The notes under the pieces were generated by a model, which saw only the letters and a program-made list of their open reading frames with translations, was not told the origin of the DNA and ran no database searches. Below are positions 43,818 through 48,343 of a DNA stretch of 51,841 nucleotides, piece by piece. Positions within the stretch are counted from its first letter, which is position 1. Each line of letters opens with the position of its first letter. Source of the stretch: Candidatus Woesearchaeota archaeon (GTDB taxonomy: Archaea; Nanobdellota; Nanobdellia; Woesearchaeales; GW2011-AR4); contig JACPJP010000007.1 of assembly GCA_016187495.1 (NCBI GenBank), positions 1 to 51,841 on the forward strand, read 5' to 3'. Position numbers and translations under genes: made by a program.

Positions 43818-45308
43818 TTATTCAAGATAGAAACACCCAACACTCTTTTTTCTTTTAAAAGATGCTAAAACAATTAATTTAGAAACAATAATCATATTTT
43901 TGGTTTTAATTATTAATTTATGTATCATATTCTTATAACTTTTCTTGATTTCTTTTTCTAATTCAGCTATTTCTCTTAATGCAAGTTTTAATTCATTTGG
44001 GCTCCTTATTATTCCTGCTTTTTCCCACATAATCCATTTTATTTTATTTTGAAGTTCAATTAATTCTTTTTCTTCATTCATGCTTATTTTTTTGATTTTA
44101 AATTTTTTATAATTTTGATTATTAAATGGGATTTTATTATTGCTATAGGATTTTGCTTTTTCAGCGGCCCTTGCAGAAAAAACTAAGCATTCCAATAATG
44201 AATTGGAAGCCAGCCTATTAGCTCCATGCACCCCAGTGCAAGCGCATTCCCCGACTGCAAAAAGGTTTTTTATCGTTGTCCGGCCATAAGAGTCTGTTTT
44301 GATGCCCCCACATAAAAAATGCGCTGCCGGGGTAATTGGAATTTTGTCTTGGGTTATATCAAAATTGAATTCCAGACATGTTTTATAGATATTTGGAAAT
44401 CTTGATCTTATAAAGTCAGCATCCCTATGTGAAATATCCAAAAAAACTTGGCTTTTTTTCATATCATTAAAAATTTCCCTGGCTAAAATGTCCCTTGGCG
44501 CTAATTCTTTTAAATCCTGTTTGATAAATCTTTCACCAGCGGAATTGACAACATAAGCCCCTTCTCCTCTTAATGCTTCAGAGATTAGGAACTTTACTCC
44601 AGAATCTGTATTCAATGCAGTAGGATGAAACTGAACGAATTCCATATTTTCAATTTCCGCTCCTGCCTCAAAAGATGCTGTTATGCCGTCTCCGGTTGCA
44701 ATTTCCGGATTGGTAGTATATTTGTAGACCTGACCAATTCCACCAGTTGCTAGAACAGTGCACTTTGATTTAACATCAAAAATAGAATTAGATGCAGCAT
44801 CAAGAAATAAAGCGCCATAGCATATCTTATTTTCCACTGCTAATCTTAGTAAGATAATATTTTCCATGACCGAAATATTTTTATTATTTTTAACAGCTTT
44901 AACAAGCTTATTTTCAATTTCCGCTCCTGTAGCATCTTTATTGTGCAAAATTCTCCTGCTGTTGTGCGCGCCTTCCATTCCGAGCTCAAATTTTCCATTA
45001 CTTTTATCGAATTCGATGCCATAAGAGACCAATTTTTCAATTTCATGAGGCGCATTTTCCACCATTATTTTTACATTTTTCTTGTTGCATAACTCAGCGC
45101 CTGCTTTTAATGTGTCTTTTATATGGCTTTCAAAGCTGTCTTTTTTGTCAAAAACCGCTGCAATTCCGCCTTGAGCATATTTTGTATTTGACTCGGAAAT
45201 TCCACCTTTTGTAATGACAAGGCATTTTCCGTATTTTGACGCATTAAGAGCAAAATATAATCCAGATAGTCCAGAGCCAATAACCAAAAAATCTGTTTTC
45301 ATTTCCAT
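43818..45308 (-). CDS. nadB: L-aspartate oxidase
   Basis: Motifs present are DFLVIGSGLSGL (FAD-binding), YAQGGIAA and HPTAL, together with a succinate-dehydrogenase-like flavoprotein architecture. Confidence 0.9.
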   Translation of the reverse strand: MEMKTDFLVIGSGLSGLYFALNASKYGKCLVITKGGISESNTKYAQGGIAAVFDKKDSFESHIKDTLKAGAELCNKKNVKIMVENAPHEIEKLVSYGIEFDKSNGKFELGMEGAHNSRRILHNKDATGAEIENKLVKAVKNNKNISVMENIILLRLAVENKICYGALFLDAASNSIFDVKSKCTVLATGGIGQVYKYTTNPEIATGDGITASFEAGAEIENMEFVQFHPTALNTDSGVKFLISEALRGEGAYVVNSAGERFIKQDLKELAPRDILAREIFNDMKKSQVFLDISHRDADFIRSRFPNIYKTCLEFNFDITQDKIPITPAAHFLCGGIKTDSYGRTTIKNLFAVGECACTGVHGANRLASNSLLECLVFSARAAEKAKSYSNNKIPFNNQNYKKFKIKKISMNEEKELIELQNKIKWIMWEKAGIIRSPNELKLALREIAELEKEIKKSYKNMIHKLIIKTKNMIIVSKLIVLASFKRKKSVGCFYLE

Positions 45309-45310
45309 AG

Positions 45311-46267
45311 CTAAAGAATTTCAAGCGATAAGTCGAATGATTTAACTGAATGTGTCAAAGAGCCAAGAGATATTACATCCACTCCAGTTTCGGAATATCC
45401 CGAAATGTTTTTCTCGTTTATGCCGCCAGAAGCTTCAAACAATAGTTTATTATTTAATTTTTTCCCATTATTTTTTTTAGTATTTATTGAATTTCCATTA
45501 ATAATATGGTTAATTTTTTTAATTGAGTTTTTTATTTGTATTGGCTTCATATTGTCAAACATAATGGCAAATAATTTGTTGGAGTTTAAACTAAAAATTG
45601 TTTCTGCTGCTTCCAAAGCCTCTTTTTCATTTTTGGCTTCTATTTCCACATATTTTGTTTTCTTATTTTTATTTGCCAGTTTCAACGCCTTATCAATGCC
45701 ATCATTTAATAATTTCAAGTGATTGTCTTTAATTAAAATAAAACCGCTTAAATTTAGCCTATGCGTCAATCCGCCGCCAACAGAAACAGCTTTTTTGTCT
45801 GTTAATGAGAATAATGTTTTTCTTGTTCCGGAAATGAAGCAACTATTTTTTGTTAATTCATTAGTGTTATATGCCAATGTCGCTATGCCGCTCATTCTCT
45901 GCAATAGGTTAAGCAAAGTCCTTTCATAAGCCAGTATTTTTCTCGCATTTCCATAAAGTTCTAAGATAGGGTCATTATTTTTGACTTTGTCCCCATCTTT
46001 GCTTTTTTCAATGGCATTTATCTTATTTTTTCGTAAAAATGCAGAAGTCTCGTCAATTCCGGCAACAATGCCATCTTGCTTTGCTACAATAATTGCTTTG
46101 ATTTTTTTATTTTTATTAATTAAAGAATTCGTGGTTATATCTTCATTGTAATAATCTTCTTTTAATTTTCCATCAATTGTTTTATTAACATAATTTTTAT
46201 ATTCTTTATTTTTAATATCCAAATATTTGCTCTTGTCCCAGAATTCAAGAACAAGGTCTTTTCTCAT
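45311..46267 (-). CDS. nadC: nicotinate-nucleotide pyrophosphorylase [carboxylating] (quinolinate phosphoribosyltransferase)
   Basis: Motifs present are ERTLLNLLQRMSGIAT, GTRKT and LIKDNH. The ATG at 46267 lies 1 nt after the nadA stop. There is an Asn/Lys-rich insertion near the C-terminus. Confidence 0.85.
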   Translation of the reverse strand: MRKDLVLEFWDKSKYLDIKNKEYKNYVNKTIDGKLKEDYYNEDITTNSLINKNKKIKAIIVAKQDGIVAGIDETSAFLRKNKINAIEKSKDGDKVKNNDPILELYGNARKILAYERTLLNLLQRMSGIATLAYNTNELTKNSCFISGTRKTLFSLTDKKAVSVGGGLTHRLNLSGFILIKDNHLKLLNDGIDKALKLANKNKKTKYVEIEAKNEKEALEAAETIFSLNSNKLFAIMFDNMKPIQIKNSIKKINHIINGNSINTKKNNGKKLNNKLLFEASGGINEKNISGYSETGVDVISLGSLTHSVKSFDLSLEIL

Positions 46268-46268
46268 C

Positions 46269-47201
46269 TTAATTAAATTCCAGCATCCTGTCCAATGCCC
46301 TTTTTGCCTTGGCAATTATATCCTTCGGCAATGTTATCTCATGTTGGTTGTATACCAAAGACTGCACTACCAAAGGCAAGGTTGTTGATTTCATGTAGGG
46401 GCAGATGTTGCAGAAGGAATAAAAATTCTTGTTTGGCACATCTTGCCTTAGCATCTCCGTCATTCCGCACTCTGTTACAACAATAAAGTCTTTTGTCCCG
46501 TTTGAATTCGCAAACTTTGCCATTCCGCCAGTCCCGCACACATGGTCTGCCATCTGCAATATTTCTTCCCTGCATTCAGGATGCGCAATTATTTTTGCTT
46601 CGGGGTTTTTTTTCTTCAAATCGGCAAGAATTTTTGCATTTAATTTGTCATGGACAAAACAATATCCATCCCATAATATTATTCGTTTATTCGTCTTTGA
46701 TGCCACATACCTTCCTAGATTTCTATCCGGAAGAAATATTATTTCATCATTTGGCAAAGAGTTTACAATTCTCACGGCATTCATGGAAGTACAACAAACA
46801 TCGGACATTGCCTTTATATCAGCAGTTGTATTAACATAGCTCACAACCGCAGCTTCAGGGTGCATTTTCTTTACTTCCGCTAGTTTTTCTGGTGTAGCCA
46901 TATCTGCTAATGAGCATCCTGCATCTAGTGTAGGCAATAGAACAGTCTTGCTAGGGCTTAGTATTTTTGCAGTCTCTGCCATGAACTTAACGCCGCAGAA
47001 TAATATTATATCAGCATCTGTTTTGGCAGCTTCCTGCGATAAGCCCAAAGAGTCCCCAATATAGTCGGCTATTTTATACATCTCAGGATTCTGATAATTA
47101 TGCGCAAGAATAACTGCATTTCTCTGCTTTTTAAGCTCTATAACCAGATGTATAAGCCTTTCTGTCTCGTTATCAAACTTAGCTATTAGCTGCTGCTCCA
47201 T
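46269..47201 (-). CDS. nadA: quinolinate synthase
   Basis: The protein is 310 aa. It has ILAHNYQ, FCGVKFMAETAKIL, IAHPEC, and conserved Cys residues for the 4Fe-4S cluster. Confidence 0.9.
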   Translation of the reverse strand: MEQQLIAKFDNETERLIHLVIELKKQRNAVILAHNYQNPEMYKIADYIGDSLGLSQEAAKTDADIILFCGVKFMAETAKILSPSKTVLLPTLDAGCSLADMATPEKLAEVKKMHPEAAVVSYVNTTADIKAMSDVCCTSMNAVRIVNSLPNDEIIFLPDRNLGRYVASKTNKRIILWDGYCFVHDKLNAKILADLKKKNPEAKIIAHPECREEILQMADHVCGTGGMAKFANSNGTKDFIVVTECGMTEMLRQDVPNKNFYSFCNICPYMKSTTLPLVVQSLVYNQHEITLPKDIIAKAKRALDRMLEFN

Positions 47202-47274
47202 TCTGCAATGTTTGCCTGTTCTTTTTAAAATAGTTATCTAATTAGGCAATTTTAGTCTACATAGTCTAAAAAAG

Positions 47275-47289
47275 AGGCAAATTTTGCCT
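47275..47289. promoter_or_regulatory. perfect palindrome AGGCAAA-T-TTTGCCT in the nadA / nadK-wHTH divergent spacer
   Basis: There is also a half-site-like aggcaatttt at 47244-47253 and a direct repeat TAGTCTA at 47253-47259 and 47262-47268. Confidence 0.3.
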
Positions 47290-47332
47290 ATAAACCGCAA
47301 TTTATTTAAACAACTGAGACTTGCCGCTCATT

Positions 47333-48343
47333 ATGTATTTCATAGCAAGCAGGAACGATAATGATTCATTAGAACTATCAAAGAGCATAGCATCTTACCT
47401 AAAGAAAAAAAACATAGAAGTTGAAATAGATGAAAATGTCAAGGCAAGTGGAAACAAAAAAAGGATATCAGAAACAAACGCAGATTGCATATTGGCAATA
47501 GGGGACGATAATTTAATACTGCAAACATTCCGCAATCTGGGCAAAAAGCAGATTCCTGTTTTAGGGATAGCATCAATGCAAAGCTTTCTTGCGCAGTCAG
47601 ATGCAACAAATTTTCGGCAGCATATAGGCCTAATAGGGAGGAAAAGGTATGAAATACGGAAAAAATCTAGGATAGTCGCCTCGTTCAATAACCAAAAATA
47701 CCCTGCACTGAATGACATTGGTATTTTTCCGGCAAAAAGCGCATCTTTGATAAGGTATACTTTAAATATAAATGACAGCCAGCTGTGGAAAGACTCTGCG
47801 GATGGTATTATCATATCAACCCCTACCGGAAGCACAGGCTACACTTATTCTGCTTATGGTCCCATCATTCTTGATGAGCCAGATATATTGTCTGTTACGC
47901 CCATCGCTTCAATAGAAAAAAAAACCACAGTAATAGTATCTGACAAGTCCTTAATAAAAATAAGCGGAATACAGACAGCAATGCCTATAGTCCTAATGGA
48001 TGGCGATGTAAGGGTTCCATTAAAAAGTGATTATGTGGAAATTGAAAGGTCAAAATGTGATGCATTGTTCATAGAGTTCTCGAAAGAGTATGCAATAGAG
48101 AAAAAATTAAAGAAAAGGACTTTAACAGTAGCTTCTTCGCATATAAAGAATCTGCCTCCGAGTGCAAAGCTCGTTTTCAAAGTGTTGTCATATGAAGGCG
48201 ACTTGACGCAAAAGGAGGTAGTTAACGCAACAGGCCTTCCGGAAAGGACAGTAAGATATGCTTTGGAGCTTTTATTGAGGAAAGGATTAATAACGCAAAG
48301 CCCTTACCTTAATGATGCCCGTCAAACGGTTTATGGAGTTTGA
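47333..48343 (+). CDS. nadK: NAD kinase fused to a C-terminal winged-helix DNA-binding domain
   Basis: The NAD kinase motifs are ILAIGDDN (GGDG-like) and ISTPTGSTGYTYSAYGPI. The last roughly 70 aa (LPPSAKLVFKVLSYEGDLTQKEVVNATGLPERTVRYALELLLRKGLI) form a MarR/TrmB-like wHTH. Confidence 0.8.
   Translation: MYFIASRNDNDSLELSKSIASYLKKKNIEVEIDENVKASGNKKRISETNADCILAIGDDNLILQTFRNLGKKQIPVLGIASMQSFLAQSDATNFRQHIGLIGRKRYEIRKKSRIVASFNNQKYPALNDIGIFPAKSASLIRYTLNINDSQLWKDSADGIIISTPTGSTGYTYSAYGPIILDEPDILSVTPIASIEKKTTVIVSDKSLIKISGIQTAMPIVLMDGDVRVPLKSDYVEIERSKCDALFIEFSKEYAIEKKLKKRTLTVASSHIKNLPPSAKLVFKVLSYEGDLTQKEVVNATGLPERTVRYALELLLRKGLITQSPYLNDARQTVYGV

What the first reader, a model, noticed from the sequence alone, without database searches (positions are those of the whole stretch)
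47202..48343. NAD kinase fused to a winged-helix domain, divergent from nadA-nadC-nadB across a palindrome-bearing spacer
The NadK catalytic core ends at about residue 270. It is followed by a MarR/TrmB-like wHTH. The gene is transcribed divergently from the de novo NAD operon, and the 131-bp spacer between the nadA start (47201) and the nadK ATG (47333) contains several repeats:
- A perfect palindrome AGGCAAATTTTGCCT (47275-47289).
- A related half-site at 47244-47253.
- A TAGTCTA direct repeat.

An enzyme-regulator fusion that senses NAD(P) status and represses nadABC, itself, or both would be a compact feedback device. I do not recall this arrangement being characterised.
Basis: inference. 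Interest (0 to 1): 0.55.

Follow-up and report, generated by a model that had tools for sequence, protein, structure and literature searches.

The report
NAD-kinase-like regulator of NAD synthesis
A small DPANN archaeon carries an NAD-kinase look-alike that has lost the kinase's signature loop and gained a DNA-binding domain; comparison with related genomes indicates it is an undescribed transcription factor that controls the neighbouring NAD-synthesis genes through a conserved palindrome.

Summary
ORF 47333-48343 (336 aa) is an NAD-kinase fold (residues 1-250), a linker, and a C-terminal winged helix (268-336). It is transcribed divergently from nadA-nadC-nadB across a 131-bp spacer that carries AGGCAAA-T-TTTGCCT.

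It is not a frameshift artefact: at least 117 collinear full-length homologues exist.

- **Motif loss.** The catalytic GGDG motif reads G-D-D-N here, and none of the 117 close homologues has GGDG. The NAD-binding motifs (NE/D, region II) are invariant.
- **Second kinase.** A stand-alone NAD kinase homologue with GGDGT lies elsewhere in this genome, and in all three other fusion-bearing genomes checked.
- **Conserved operator.** GGCAA-N3-TTGCC, plus a GGCAA half-site 30-31 bp away, is kept at fixed positions in 14 of 14 related loci, with a single base change in the palindrome of one. The same palindrome, without that half-site, is kept in a Bathyarchaeota locus. It occurs once in this genome and in none of 20 nadA loci from genomes without the fusion.
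- **Chance repeat.** The TAGTCTA repeat is not conserved.

Best reading: an NAD(P)-sensing, probably kinase-dead, transcription factor for NAD synthesis genes and for itself. DNA binding, ligand and sign of regulation are inferred, not shown.

It works like NrtR and RbkR but is not homologous to them. I found no paper describing it. This scan flagged the same family earlier on other DNA (e1-5305690, e1-4379963).

The parts
43818..45308 (-). nadB, L-aspartate oxidase, last gene of the divergent operon
   Evidence: Pfam FAD_binding_2 1e-92 and Succ_DH_flav_C.
45311..46267 (-). nadC, quinolinate phosphoribosyltransferase. Probable ATG at 46267; the ORF list extends to TTG 46315.
   Evidence: Pfam QRPTase_N 1e-23 and QRPTase_C 2e-33. 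The Met at residue 17 of the listed ORF lies 1 nt after the nadA stop.
46269..47201 (-). nadA, quinolinate synthase, first gene of the divergent operon
   Evidence: Pfam NadA 1.1e-119, full length.
47204..47216 (.). Near-palindrome TGCAATGTTTGCC (1 mismatch to GGCAA-N3-TTGCC) between the nadA TATA-like box and the nadA start. Possible auxiliary operator.
   Evidence: A like sequence sits at the same place in L003 only. It is not conserved in more distant loci.
47222..47237 (-). Conserved block TTTTTAAAATAGTTAT, read as the BRE/TATA of the nadA promoter. It is centred about 25 nt upstream of the nadA ATG, which suggests a leaderless mRNA.
   Evidence: Conserved in 12 of 14 loci. The promoter role is inferred from archaeal promoter geometry.
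47244..47253 (.). Operator half-site AGGCAATTTT
   Evidence: A GGCAA lies 30-31 bp upstream of the palindrome's GGCAA in 14 of 14 loci.
47253..47268 (.). TAGTCTA direct repeat (two copies, 9-bp period)
   Evidence: Present here and absent from all 13 related spacers. Probably chance.
47275..47289 (.). Operator palindrome AGGCAAA-T-TTTGCCT, core GGCAA-N3-TTGCC
   Evidence: - Unique in the genome.
- Sits at -57/-58 (-49 in two loci) from the fusion ATG in 14 of 14 loci, with one base change in L120.
- Present in the Bathyarchaeota locus L133.
- Absent from 20 nadA loci that lack the fusion.
47289..47310 (+). TATA-like boxes of the fusion gene: TATAAA (47289-47294), abutting the palindrome, and TTTATTTAAA (47301-47310)
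   Evidence: Both blocks are conserved in most loci. The promoter role is inferred.
47333..48343 (+). Gene for the NADK-like/wHTH fusion protein (336 aa plus stop)
47333..48082 (+). NAD-kinase-fold domain (residues 1-250), proposed NAD(P)-binding sensor
   Evidence: - Pfam domains.
- AlphaFold mean pLDDT 83.5.
- Foldseek top hits are all NAD kinases (7mh7, 2an1, 1suw; E 1e-23 to 5e-21).
47501..47512 (+). Codons for G57-D58-D59-N60, which replace the GGDG catalytic motif
   Evidence: Aligned to GGDG of PDB NAD kinases. No GGDG in 117 homologues.
48134..48340 (+). Winged helix-turn-helix domain (residues 268-336). Recognition helix region LPERTVRYAL, wing DARQTVYGV.
   Evidence: - Model topology H-H-H-strand-strand.
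- Sub-threshold Pfam MarR_2, HTH_24 and TrmB hits.
- The best-conserved part of the family.
- Foldseek neighbours are wHTH regulators.

Best explanation
The gene encodes a transcription factor built from an NAD-kinase fold and a C-terminal winged helix.

**Proposed mechanism**
- The protein dimerises through the kinase fold, as NAD kinases do. That dimer interface also forms the NAD pocket.
- The two winged helices read the palindrome GGCAA-N3-TTGCC, which sits just upstream of the gene's own TATA-like box.
- A further subunit, or a second dimer, contacts the GGCAA half-site three helical turns away. That half-site sits just upstream of the nadA TATA-like box.
- Occupancy of the retained NAD(P) pocket changes DNA binding, so transcription of nadA-nadC-nadB and of the regulator itself follows cellular NAD(P) level.
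- I favour repression when NAD is plentiful.
- The kinase activity is probably lost. The housekeeping NAD kinase is then the stand-alone GGDGT homologue on contig C10.

**Shown**
- The domain architecture.
- Erosion of the GGDG motif.
- Coexistence with the stand-alone homologue.
- Conservation of the operator, and its restriction to loci that have the fusion.
- The NAD-gene context.

**Inferred**
- DNA binding.
- Identity of the ligand.
- Loss of catalysis.
- Oligomeric state.
- Sign of regulation.
For: **The fusion is real**
- At least 117 collinear homologues of 300-360 aa.
- 88 of the best 150 representatives at 50% identity carry both parts.
- Their names place them in Woesearchaeota/Nanoarchaeota, Micrarchaeota, Bathyarchaeota and Heimdallarchaeota.

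**Fold**
- NAD-kinase fold plus wHTH.

**Sensor rather than enzyme**
- In 117 homologues the GGDG positions read G (117) / D 114, N 2, E 1 / D 107, N 10 / N, K, R, S, with G in only 2. None reads GGDG.
- N127-D128 and T163-P-T-G-S-T168, Y170 are invariant or nearly so.
- These correspond to residues shown by mutagenesis to be vital in M. tuberculosis Ppnk: Asp85, Asn159, Glu160, Thr200, Tyr202 (PMC8553519).
- Among representatives, 61 of 79 fusions have an eroded GGDG against 4 of 55 stand-alone proteins. Each of those 4 is sister to a fusion and is probably a fragment.

**A separate kinase exists**
- A GGDGT homologue is present in G000, G144, G065 and G041.
- It occurs in 97 of 201 genomes of the order, against 4 of 201 for the fusion.

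**Operator**
- Unique in the genome.
- 14 of 14 loci keep the palindrome (one base changed in L120) and a half-site with 30-31 bp spacing. Majority identity is 0.94 in the palindrome columns and 0.54 in the DNA between the sites.
- The same palindrome is present in the Bathyarchaeota locus L133.
- 0 of 20 nadA loci from genomes without the fusion have it; 12 of 12 tested loci with the fusion do.

**Target genes**
- A nadA operon is the divergent partner in 10 of 14 loci.
- L132 has nadA, nadC, aspartate dehydrogenase, CN_hydrolase, NAD synthase and NMNAT in one operon.
- L133 has aspartate dehydrogenase and nadA.

**Not an RNA element**
- No Rfam hit reaches its threshold, and the fold z-score is -1.49.
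Against: **No biochemical evidence**
- There are no biochemical data of any kind.

**The domain may still be a kinase**
- The catalytic Asp itself is kept here (D59) and in 107 of 117 homologues.
- All NAD-contacting motifs are intact.
- This domain scores higher against NAD-kinase models than the stand-alone homologue does (128 vs 81 bits).
- The stand-alone homologue has a diverged region II (STAAGSYAW), so which protein is the working kinase is not settled.

**The link to nadABC is not exclusive**
- 33 of 35 nadA-bearing genomes in the order sample lack the fusion.
- Two fusion-bearing genomes (G144, 95% complete; G041, 87%) showed no nadA.
- There the divergent partner is an unknown small protein or an SSF transporter.

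**Sign of regulation**
- Both conserved sites lie upstream of the TATA-like boxes rather than over the start sites. In archaea this position often means activation.

**wHTH family assignment**
- The Pfam wHTH hits are below gathering thresholds.
- The isolated wHTH model lost its wing.
Confidence: 0.7

Rival explanations
1. Bifunctional protein: an active NAD kinase with an unusual GDDN loop that also acts as a transcription factor, as RbkR, NadR and BirA combine catalysis with DNA binding.
For: - D59 (the catalytic base position), the NE/D motif and region II are conserved.
- 18 of 79 related fusions keep an intact GGDG, for example Micrarchaeota P0175.
- The stand-alone homologue has a diverged region II.
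- RbkR sets a precedent in archaea (PMC5397151).
Against: - Both glycines flanking the Asp are replaced in all 117 close homologues, and the Asp itself is Asn in 10.
- The review read lists GGDG as one of three motifs determined in all NAD kinases.
- SphK1 G82D is a standard kinase-dead mutant (PMC7599897, title and abstract only). That G82 is a glycine of the equivalent motif is from my memory of the numbering.
- Unlike RbkR, the fusion is not mutually exclusive with a stand-alone enzyme: it coexists with one in 4 of 4 genomes.
- The fusion is rare (4 of 201), while an essential kinase should be general.
Confidence: 0.22
2. Plain NAD kinase with a C-terminal winged helix used for protein contacts or oligomerisation. 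The palindrome would belong to another regulator or be a promoter element unrelated to this protein.
For: - Public annotation calls the homologues 'NAD(+)/NADH kinase'.
- Winged helices can mediate protein contacts.
Against: - The palindrome travels with the fusion gene whatever the divergent partner is (nadA, small protein, transporter) and across phyla.
- It is absent from nadA loci without the fusion.
- The wHTH, with invariant residues in the recognition helix and wing, is the best-conserved part of the protein.
- GGDG is eroded.
Confidence: 0.05
3. The conserved spacer elements act as RNA, for example an NAD riboswitch of the nadA-motif kind or another leader structure, rather than as protein operators.
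For: NAD+ riboswitches upstream of nadA are known in bacteria (from memory). The spacer contains an inverted repeat.
Against: - No Rfam family reaches its threshold in 46900-47600; the best hit is 24 bits against a gathering score of 81.
- Fold energy is not unusual (z -1.49).
- The elements lie upstream of both TATA-like boxes, so they are probably not transcribed.
- A 7-bp hairpin with a 1-nt loop cannot form well.
Confidence: 0.02

Closest known systems
NAD kinase (NadK/PpnK, EC 2.7.1.23; Pfam PF01513 + PF20143; PDB 7mh7, 2an1, 1suw, 1u0t)
   Same: - Two-domain fold (Foldseek E about 1e-23, TM to target 0.78).
- NE/D motif.
- Region II (DG..STPTGSTGY).
- Probable dimer-formed NAD pocket.
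   Different: - GGDG is replaced by GDDN.
- An extra C-terminal wHTH is present.
- The score is below every NCBIfam NAD-kinase cut-off (128 vs 326 bits).
- It coexists with a GGDGT homologue.
- It is rare in its order.
NrtR (Nudix-related transcriptional regulator of NAD metabolism, bacteria; PMC2330246)
   Same: - An enzyme-derived effector domain for an NAD-related ligand, N-terminal to a C-terminal wHTH.
- Controls NAD synthesis genes.
- Annotated as an enzyme.
- First recognised by comparative genomics.
   Different: - The effector domain is Nudix, not an NAD-kinase fold, so there is no homology in the sensor.
- It is bacterial.
RbkR (riboflavin kinase/regulator of Archaea; PMC5397151)
   Same: - Archaeal.
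- A cofactor-kinase domain fused to a MarR-like wHTH.
- Controls the biosynthesis genes of that cofactor through palindromic sites.
   Different: - In RbkR the wHTH is N-terminal.
- The kinase fold is unrelated.
- RbkR is an active kinase and is usually the only RibK in the genome. Here the motif is eroded and a separate homologue exists.
NadR (enterobacterial trifunctional NAD repressor) and NiaR (YrxA)
   Same: Dedicated regulators of NAD synthesis and salvage whose sensor is related to NAD-pathway proteins.
   Different: - Different folds: NMNAT/RNK with an N-terminal HTH in NadR, and a 3H domain in NiaR.
- Both are bacterial.
- Their operators are unrelated.

Membership tests
NAD kinase (EC 2.7.1.23) | Two-domain NAD-kinase fold | tested here: met
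   Pfam PF01513 and PF20143 above threshold. Foldseek top 50 hits are all NAD kinases.
NAD kinase (EC 2.7.1.23) | GGDG motif (phosphate-binding loop with the catalytic Asp) | tested here: not met
   G57-D58-D59-N60 aligns to GGDG of 2an1 and 7mh7. None of 117 homologues has GGDG.
NAD kinase (EC 2.7.1.23) | NE/D short motif and conserved region II (NAD pocket) | tested here: met
   N127-D128, D157-G158, T163-T168 and Y170 are invariant or nearly so. Their roles are from PMC8553519.
NAD kinase (EC 2.7.1.23) | Score above a curated equivalog cut-off | tested here: not met
   Best NCBIfam hit NF002984 scores 128 bits against a cut-off of 326.
NAD kinase (EC 2.7.1.23) | Phosphorylates NAD | not testable with these tools
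   Needs an enzyme assay.
MarR/TrmB-type winged-helix transcription factors | wHTH fold (three helices plus a beta-hairpin wing) | tested here: met
   Full-length model: H276-288, H293-300, H304-316, E321-325, E328-335, block pLDDT 81-92. Foldseek neighbours of the isolated domain are Lrp/AsnC, MarR and TFE winged helices with prob 0.9-1.0 but E > 0.1.
MarR/TrmB-type winged-helix transcription factors | Passes the Pfam family threshold for a named wHTH family | tested here: not met
   MarR_2 23.6 bits against 27; HTH_24 20.9 against 21.9; TrmB 18.1 against 25.6. Some homologues carry precomputed PF13412, PF12802 or PF01047 hits. The class is wHTH; the family is unassigned.
MarR/TrmB-type winged-helix transcription factors | Palindromic site in its own promoter region, conserved with the gene | tested here: met
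MarR/TrmB-type winged-helix transcription factors | Binds that DNA | not testable with these tools
   Needs EMSA or footprinting.
RbkR-type bifunctional kinase/regulators | The fusion is the only copy of the enzyme in the genome (mutual exclusion with the stand-alone enzyme) | tested here: not met
   A stand-alone GGDGT homologue is present in all four fusion-bearing genomes.
NrtR-type enzyme-derived NAD regulators (analogy only) | Nudix-like effector domain | tested here: not met
   No Nudix hit in Pfam or NCBIfam. The resemblance is functional and architectural, not homology.

The most novel reading that the evidence does not exclude
This is a member of a family spread across several archaeal phyla: the first dedicated transcription factor for NAD biosynthesis in Archaea, derived from NAD kinase. 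The family spans a range of states, from fusions with an intact GGDG (possibly bifunctional) to kinase-dead NAD(P) sensors such as this one. In DPANN genomes that lack de novo synthesis, the same regulator and operator control an uncharacterised 150-190-aa protein and a transporter, which would then be new NAD salvage or uptake functions.
Probability: 0.45. Interest if true: 0.72.

Novelty: new variant of a known kind. Interest (0 to 1): 0.62.

Why it matters
- **Gap filled.** I found no paper naming a regulator of NAD biosynthesis in Archaea. The bacterial regulators NadR, NiaR and NrtR came up only in bacterial studies.
- **Testable.** This family offers a candidate with a defined operator, so EMSA, ligand screening and kinase assays can test it directly.
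- **Annotation.** Databases call these proteins NAD kinases. If they are kinase-dead, metabolic reconstructions of DPANN, Bathyarchaeota and Asgard genomes wrongly credit them with NADP synthesis.
- **Evolution.** The family shows an enzyme turning into a sensor, with intact and eroded catalytic loops side by side.
- **New functions.** The regulon points to unknown proteins that may serve NAD acquisition in host-dependent archaea.

Tried and rejected
- **Genome-contig scan.** The chosen peptide patterns also fit ordinary NAD kinases.
- **TAGTCTA repeat as an operator.** Rejected: absent from all 13 related spacers.
- **Wider regulon in this genome.** No second GGCAA-N3-TTGCC exists. Matches with up to 3 mismatches were listed; the looser GGCA-N5-TGCC matches checked for position lie inside ORFs except one at a contig end.
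- **Downstream NAD genes.** tblastn with nadE, NMNAT, CN_hydrolase and the small protein from related loci found nothing in G000. NAD_synthase was not found in the 67%-complete assembly. Two cytidylyltransferase-like genes on C9 have no motif nearby.
- **Riboswitch or RNA reading.** No Rfam hit reaches threshold and the fold is not unusual.
- **Isolated wHTH model (13 sequences).** pLDDT 72.8, the wing was not formed and Foldseek E-values exceeded 0.1. I rely on the full-length model for the wing.
- **ESM Atlas look-up of the small partner protein.** No usable hit.
- **Frameshift or missed-stop artefact.** Rejected on the collinear homologues.
- **Sigma-70 promoter scan.** Not run; it does not apply to archaea.
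Full report
**1. What is there**

The window is contig C20 of a 778-kb, 67%-complete assembly. The closest homologues of the gene are named Candidatus Woesearchaeota or Nanoarchaeota, so this is a DPANN archaeon.

ORF 47333-48343 (+) encodes 336 residues. The TTG at 47321 that the ORF list offers is not the start: the aligned homologues begin at the same Met (MYF or MFF...).

On the other strand lie three NAD genes:
- nadA, 46269-47201, Pfam NadA 1e-119.
- nadC, to 45311.
- nadB, 43818-45308, an FAD-dependent L-aspartate oxidase.

The spacer 47202-47332 is 131 bp.

**2. The protein**

Domain evidence:
- Pfam finds NAD_kinase (37-97) and NAD_kinase_C (126-248) above threshold.
- It finds a cluster of winged-helix families just below threshold at 273-334.

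An AlphaFold model built on 49 sequences has mean pLDDT 83.5. It shows:
- an NAD-kinase fold to about residue 250;
- a low-confidence linker at 252-264;
- three helices followed by a beta hairpin at 268-336, which is the winged-helix topology.

Foldseek places the model among NAD kinases: 7mh7, 2an1, 4hao and 1suw, with E from 1e-23 to 5e-21. An isolated model of the last 75 residues was weaker and lost the wing. Its nearest solved structures were still all winged-helix regulators, namely Lrp/AsnC, MarR and TFE-alpha.

The fusion is not an assembly artefact. 117 homologues of 300-360 aa are collinear over both parts. A search scored on residues 262-336 alone returned only proteins that also carry NAD_kinase_C.

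**3. The catalytic loop is gone, the NAD pocket is kept**

HMMER aligns 'IGDDNLIL' of this protein to 'VGGDGNML' of solved NAD kinases. In the 117 homologues the four GGDG positions read:

| GGDG position | Residues found |
|---|---|
| 1 | G in 117 |
| 2 | D 114, N 2, E 1 |
| 3 | D 107, N 10 |
| 4 | N 86, K 13, R 10, S 5, G 2 |

None reads GGDG. By contrast N127-D128 (the NE/D motif) and D157-G158, T163-P-T-G-S-T168 and Y170 (region II) are invariant or nearly so.

A review of NAD kinases (PMC8553519) makes three relevant points:
- These three motifs are determined in all NAD kinases.
- Asp85, Asn159, Glu160, Thr200 and Tyr202 of M. tuberculosis Ppnk are vital for activity.
- The NAD site is completed by an Asp from the neighbouring subunit.

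All the NAD-contacting equivalents are therefore present. The phosphate-binding glycines are not, and about 9% of relatives have also lost the catalytic Asp.

My reading is that the pocket still binds an NAD-type ligand but that phosphoryl transfer is lost or much reduced. This is inference. The retained Asp59 keeps an active-enzyme reading open.

**4. A second NAD kinase homologue**

The assembly has a 263-aa stand-alone homologue on contig C10 with GGDGT.

| Protein | Genomes of the order with a hit |
|---|---|
| Stand-alone homologue | 97 of 201 |
| Full-length fusion | 4 of 201 (G000, G144, G065, G041) |

All four fusion-bearing genomes also have the stand-alone protein with GGDGT. This is the opposite of RbkR, where the fusion replaces the single-domain kinase (PMC5397151).

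One caveat: the stand-alone protein has an unusual region II (STAAGSYAW). It also scores lower against NAD-kinase models than the fusion does (81 vs 128 bits).

**5. The operator**

GGCAA-N3-TTGCC occurs exactly once in the 778-kb assembly, in this spacer. The looser GGCA-N5-TGCC matches lie inside ORFs, apart from one at a contig end on C30.

I collected 13 further loci from metagenomes and genomes whose fusion proteins are 37-69% identical to this one. The results:
- All 14 loci have the palindrome (one reads GGCCA in the left arm). It sits at -57/-58 from the fusion ATG, or -49 in two loci.
- All 14 have a GGCAA half-site 30 or 31 bp upstream of it, three helical turns away.
- Majority identity is 0.94 across the palindrome columns and 0.54 in the stretch between the two sites.
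- The TAGTCTA repeat is found only in the window.

Two further tests:
- In a Bathyarchaeota locus (L133, fusion with GGDS) the spacer between the aspartate dehydrogenase-nadA operon and the fusion gene holds GGCAAATATTGCC.
- As a negative control I took 20 nadA loci (125 kb) from genomes of the same order in which the fusion was not found. None has the exact palindrome. All 12 tested loci with the fusion do.

The motif therefore travels with the regulator, not with nadA.

No Rfam family reaches its threshold in the spacer, and its RNA fold is unremarkable.

**6. Promoter geometry (inferred)**

- On the nadA side, the conserved block TTTTTAAAATAGTTAT (47222-47237) is centred about 25 nt from the nadA ATG, which suggests a leaderless transcript. 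The half-site lies 6-7 nt beyond this block.
- On the other side, the palindrome abuts a conserved TATAAA. It lies 12 nt from a second TATA-like box, which is itself about 25 nt from the fusion ATG.
- Both sites are thus immediately upstream of the core promoters. This position fits steric repression of TBP/TFB binding, and it fits activation equally well.
- In the window and its nearest relative L003, a near-palindrome (47204-47216, one mismatch) lies between the nadA TATA-like box and the start codon, a typical repressor position. It is not conserved further out.

I favour repression by analogy with NadR, NiaR and NrtR, at roughly 55:45.

**7. Targets**

The divergent partner varies:
- A nadA operon in 10 of 14 Woesearchaeota-type loci. 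Most have nadA-nadC-aspartate dehydrogenase.
- L132 has six genes, from nadA to the NMN adenylyltransferase.
- The window has NadB in place of the dehydrogenase.
- Three loci (L004, L115/L116, L118) have a conserved 151-190-aa protein without any Pfam family behind the same operator layout.
- One locus (L120) has a sodium:solute symporter.

G144 (95% complete) and G041 (87% complete) showed no nadA. Conversely, 33 of 35 nadA-bearing genomes in the sample lack the fusion. The regulator is thus an optional, lineage-restricted addition, and its regulon is local and variable.

In more distant clades the link loosens:
- A Micrarchaeota fusion with intact GGDG sits next to unknown genes, with no GGCAA motif.
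- Another fusion (L135, protein P0317) faces an ABC transporter.

**8. The wider family**

A profile search of 1.84 billion representatives gave 88 fusions among the best 150.

| Group | Eroded GGDG | Intact GGDG |
|---|---|---|
| Fusions covering the motif (79) | 61 | 18 |
| Stand-alone proteins (55) | 4 | 51 |

The 4 eroded stand-alone proteins are each sister to a fusion and are probably fragments.

A quick FastTree of the kinase part, with the motif columns removed, shows:
- Most stand-alone kinases fall apart from the fusions.
- Most intact-GGDG fusions sit in a mixed group with some stand-alone proteins.
- The window's protein lies in a well-supported, all-eroded group.

Deep branches are weakly supported and the root is arbitrary, so I draw no order of events from this tree.

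**9. Comparison and novelty**

- By fold, the protein belongs to the NAD-kinase superfamily, but it fails the GGDG test.
- By class, it is a wHTH regulator, but no named family passes threshold.
- By function, it most resembles NrtR (an enzyme-derived sensor followed by a C-terminal wHTH, controlling NAD genes) and RbkR (an archaeal cofactor kinase fused to a wHTH).

Four full-text searches found no description of an NAD-kinase/wHTH regulator, nor of any archaeal NAD regulator. Public names are 'NAD(+)/NADH kinase' or, once, 'winged helix-turn-helix transcriptional regulator'.

The scan's own notes show that the same family was flagged on two other genomes, with the same reading (e1-5305690, e1-4379963). 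I reached the conclusions above from my own calls. Those notes are not independent evidence.

**10. Unpublished genomes**

The order-level tallies include genomes flagged unpublished:
- The 52/201 and 97/201 tallies include G121 and G183.
- The 35/201 tally includes G132.

None of the fusion-bearing genomes (G000, G144, G065, G041) and none of the 20 control loci is flagged.

**Verdict**

The important correction is that the kinase part looks like a sensor rather than an enzyme. It is a new variant of a known kind of regulator.

Confidence by claim:
- About 0.7 that it is a DNA-binding regulator of the adjacent NAD genes.
- About 0.6 that it is kinase-dead.
- About 0.6 that the ligand is NAD(P).

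Noticed in passing
L115:114-629 (-), L118:2242-2814 (+), L004:5414-5869 (-): A conserved 151-190-aa protein with no Pfam family takes the place of nadA behind the same operator layout. It has a shared YI.ELIR.S..Y.F block and a C-terminal QELWEK.GFYQ.KT...V.VQ.WPEH..YDHFKR..AFLFC. 54 clusters were found, all hypothetical and from Woesearchaeota. Several share their longest-contig length with fusion-protein clusters, which suggests frequent adjacency. It may be a new NAD-related function.
   Followed up: partly
L120:2189-3613 (+) (G041): In G041 the divergent partner of the fusion is a sodium:solute symporter (Pfam SSF 1e-39). The spacer has GGCCAAAATTGCC and the half-site. It is a possible uptake system under the same control.
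   Followed up: partly
window 43818-45308 (-): This genome uses NadB (FAD-dependent L-aspartate oxidase) as the first enzyme of the pathway. Related operons (L113, L114, L117, L119, L128-L132) and the Bathyarchaeota locus L133 have aspartate dehydrogenase (Asp_DH_C) in that role. This looks like a non-orthologous replacement inside an otherwise conserved operon.
   Followed up: no
window 46509-46521; exact copies inside nadA of L117, L129, L130: An operator-like palindrome lies inside nadA about 760 bp from the main site. It has 1 mismatch here and is exact in three relatives. It encodes the NadA peptide M-A-K-F-A, so coding constraint may explain it. An auxiliary operator is not excluded.
   Followed up: partly
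G000:C10, L002:1492-2283 (-): The stand-alone NAD kinase homologue has GGDGT but an atypical region II (STAAGSYAW in place of STPTGSTAY). It is the form found in 97 of 201 genomes of the order. Its substrate and activity deserve a test.
   Followed up: partly
G000 whole assembly: NAD synthase (PF02540) was not found. Two cytidylyltransferase-like genes lie on C9. In this 67%-complete assembly the steps after NaMN are not accounted for.
   Followed up: no
L004, L115, L132, L133, L135: 6-10 nt upstream of the fusion ATG: A further GGCAA recurs just before the start codon in five loci, including distant ones. The window and L117 have TTGCC at -12 instead. This could be a third half-site for autoregulation, or part of a ribosome-binding stretch.
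   Followed up: no
L115, L128, L129, L131, L132 downstream of the fusion gene: NurA-like nuclease and PfkB-family kinase genes recur a few kb downstream of the fusion gene. Topoisomerase I and Lon follow the nad operon on the other side, so synteny around the locus is conserved.
   Followed up: no
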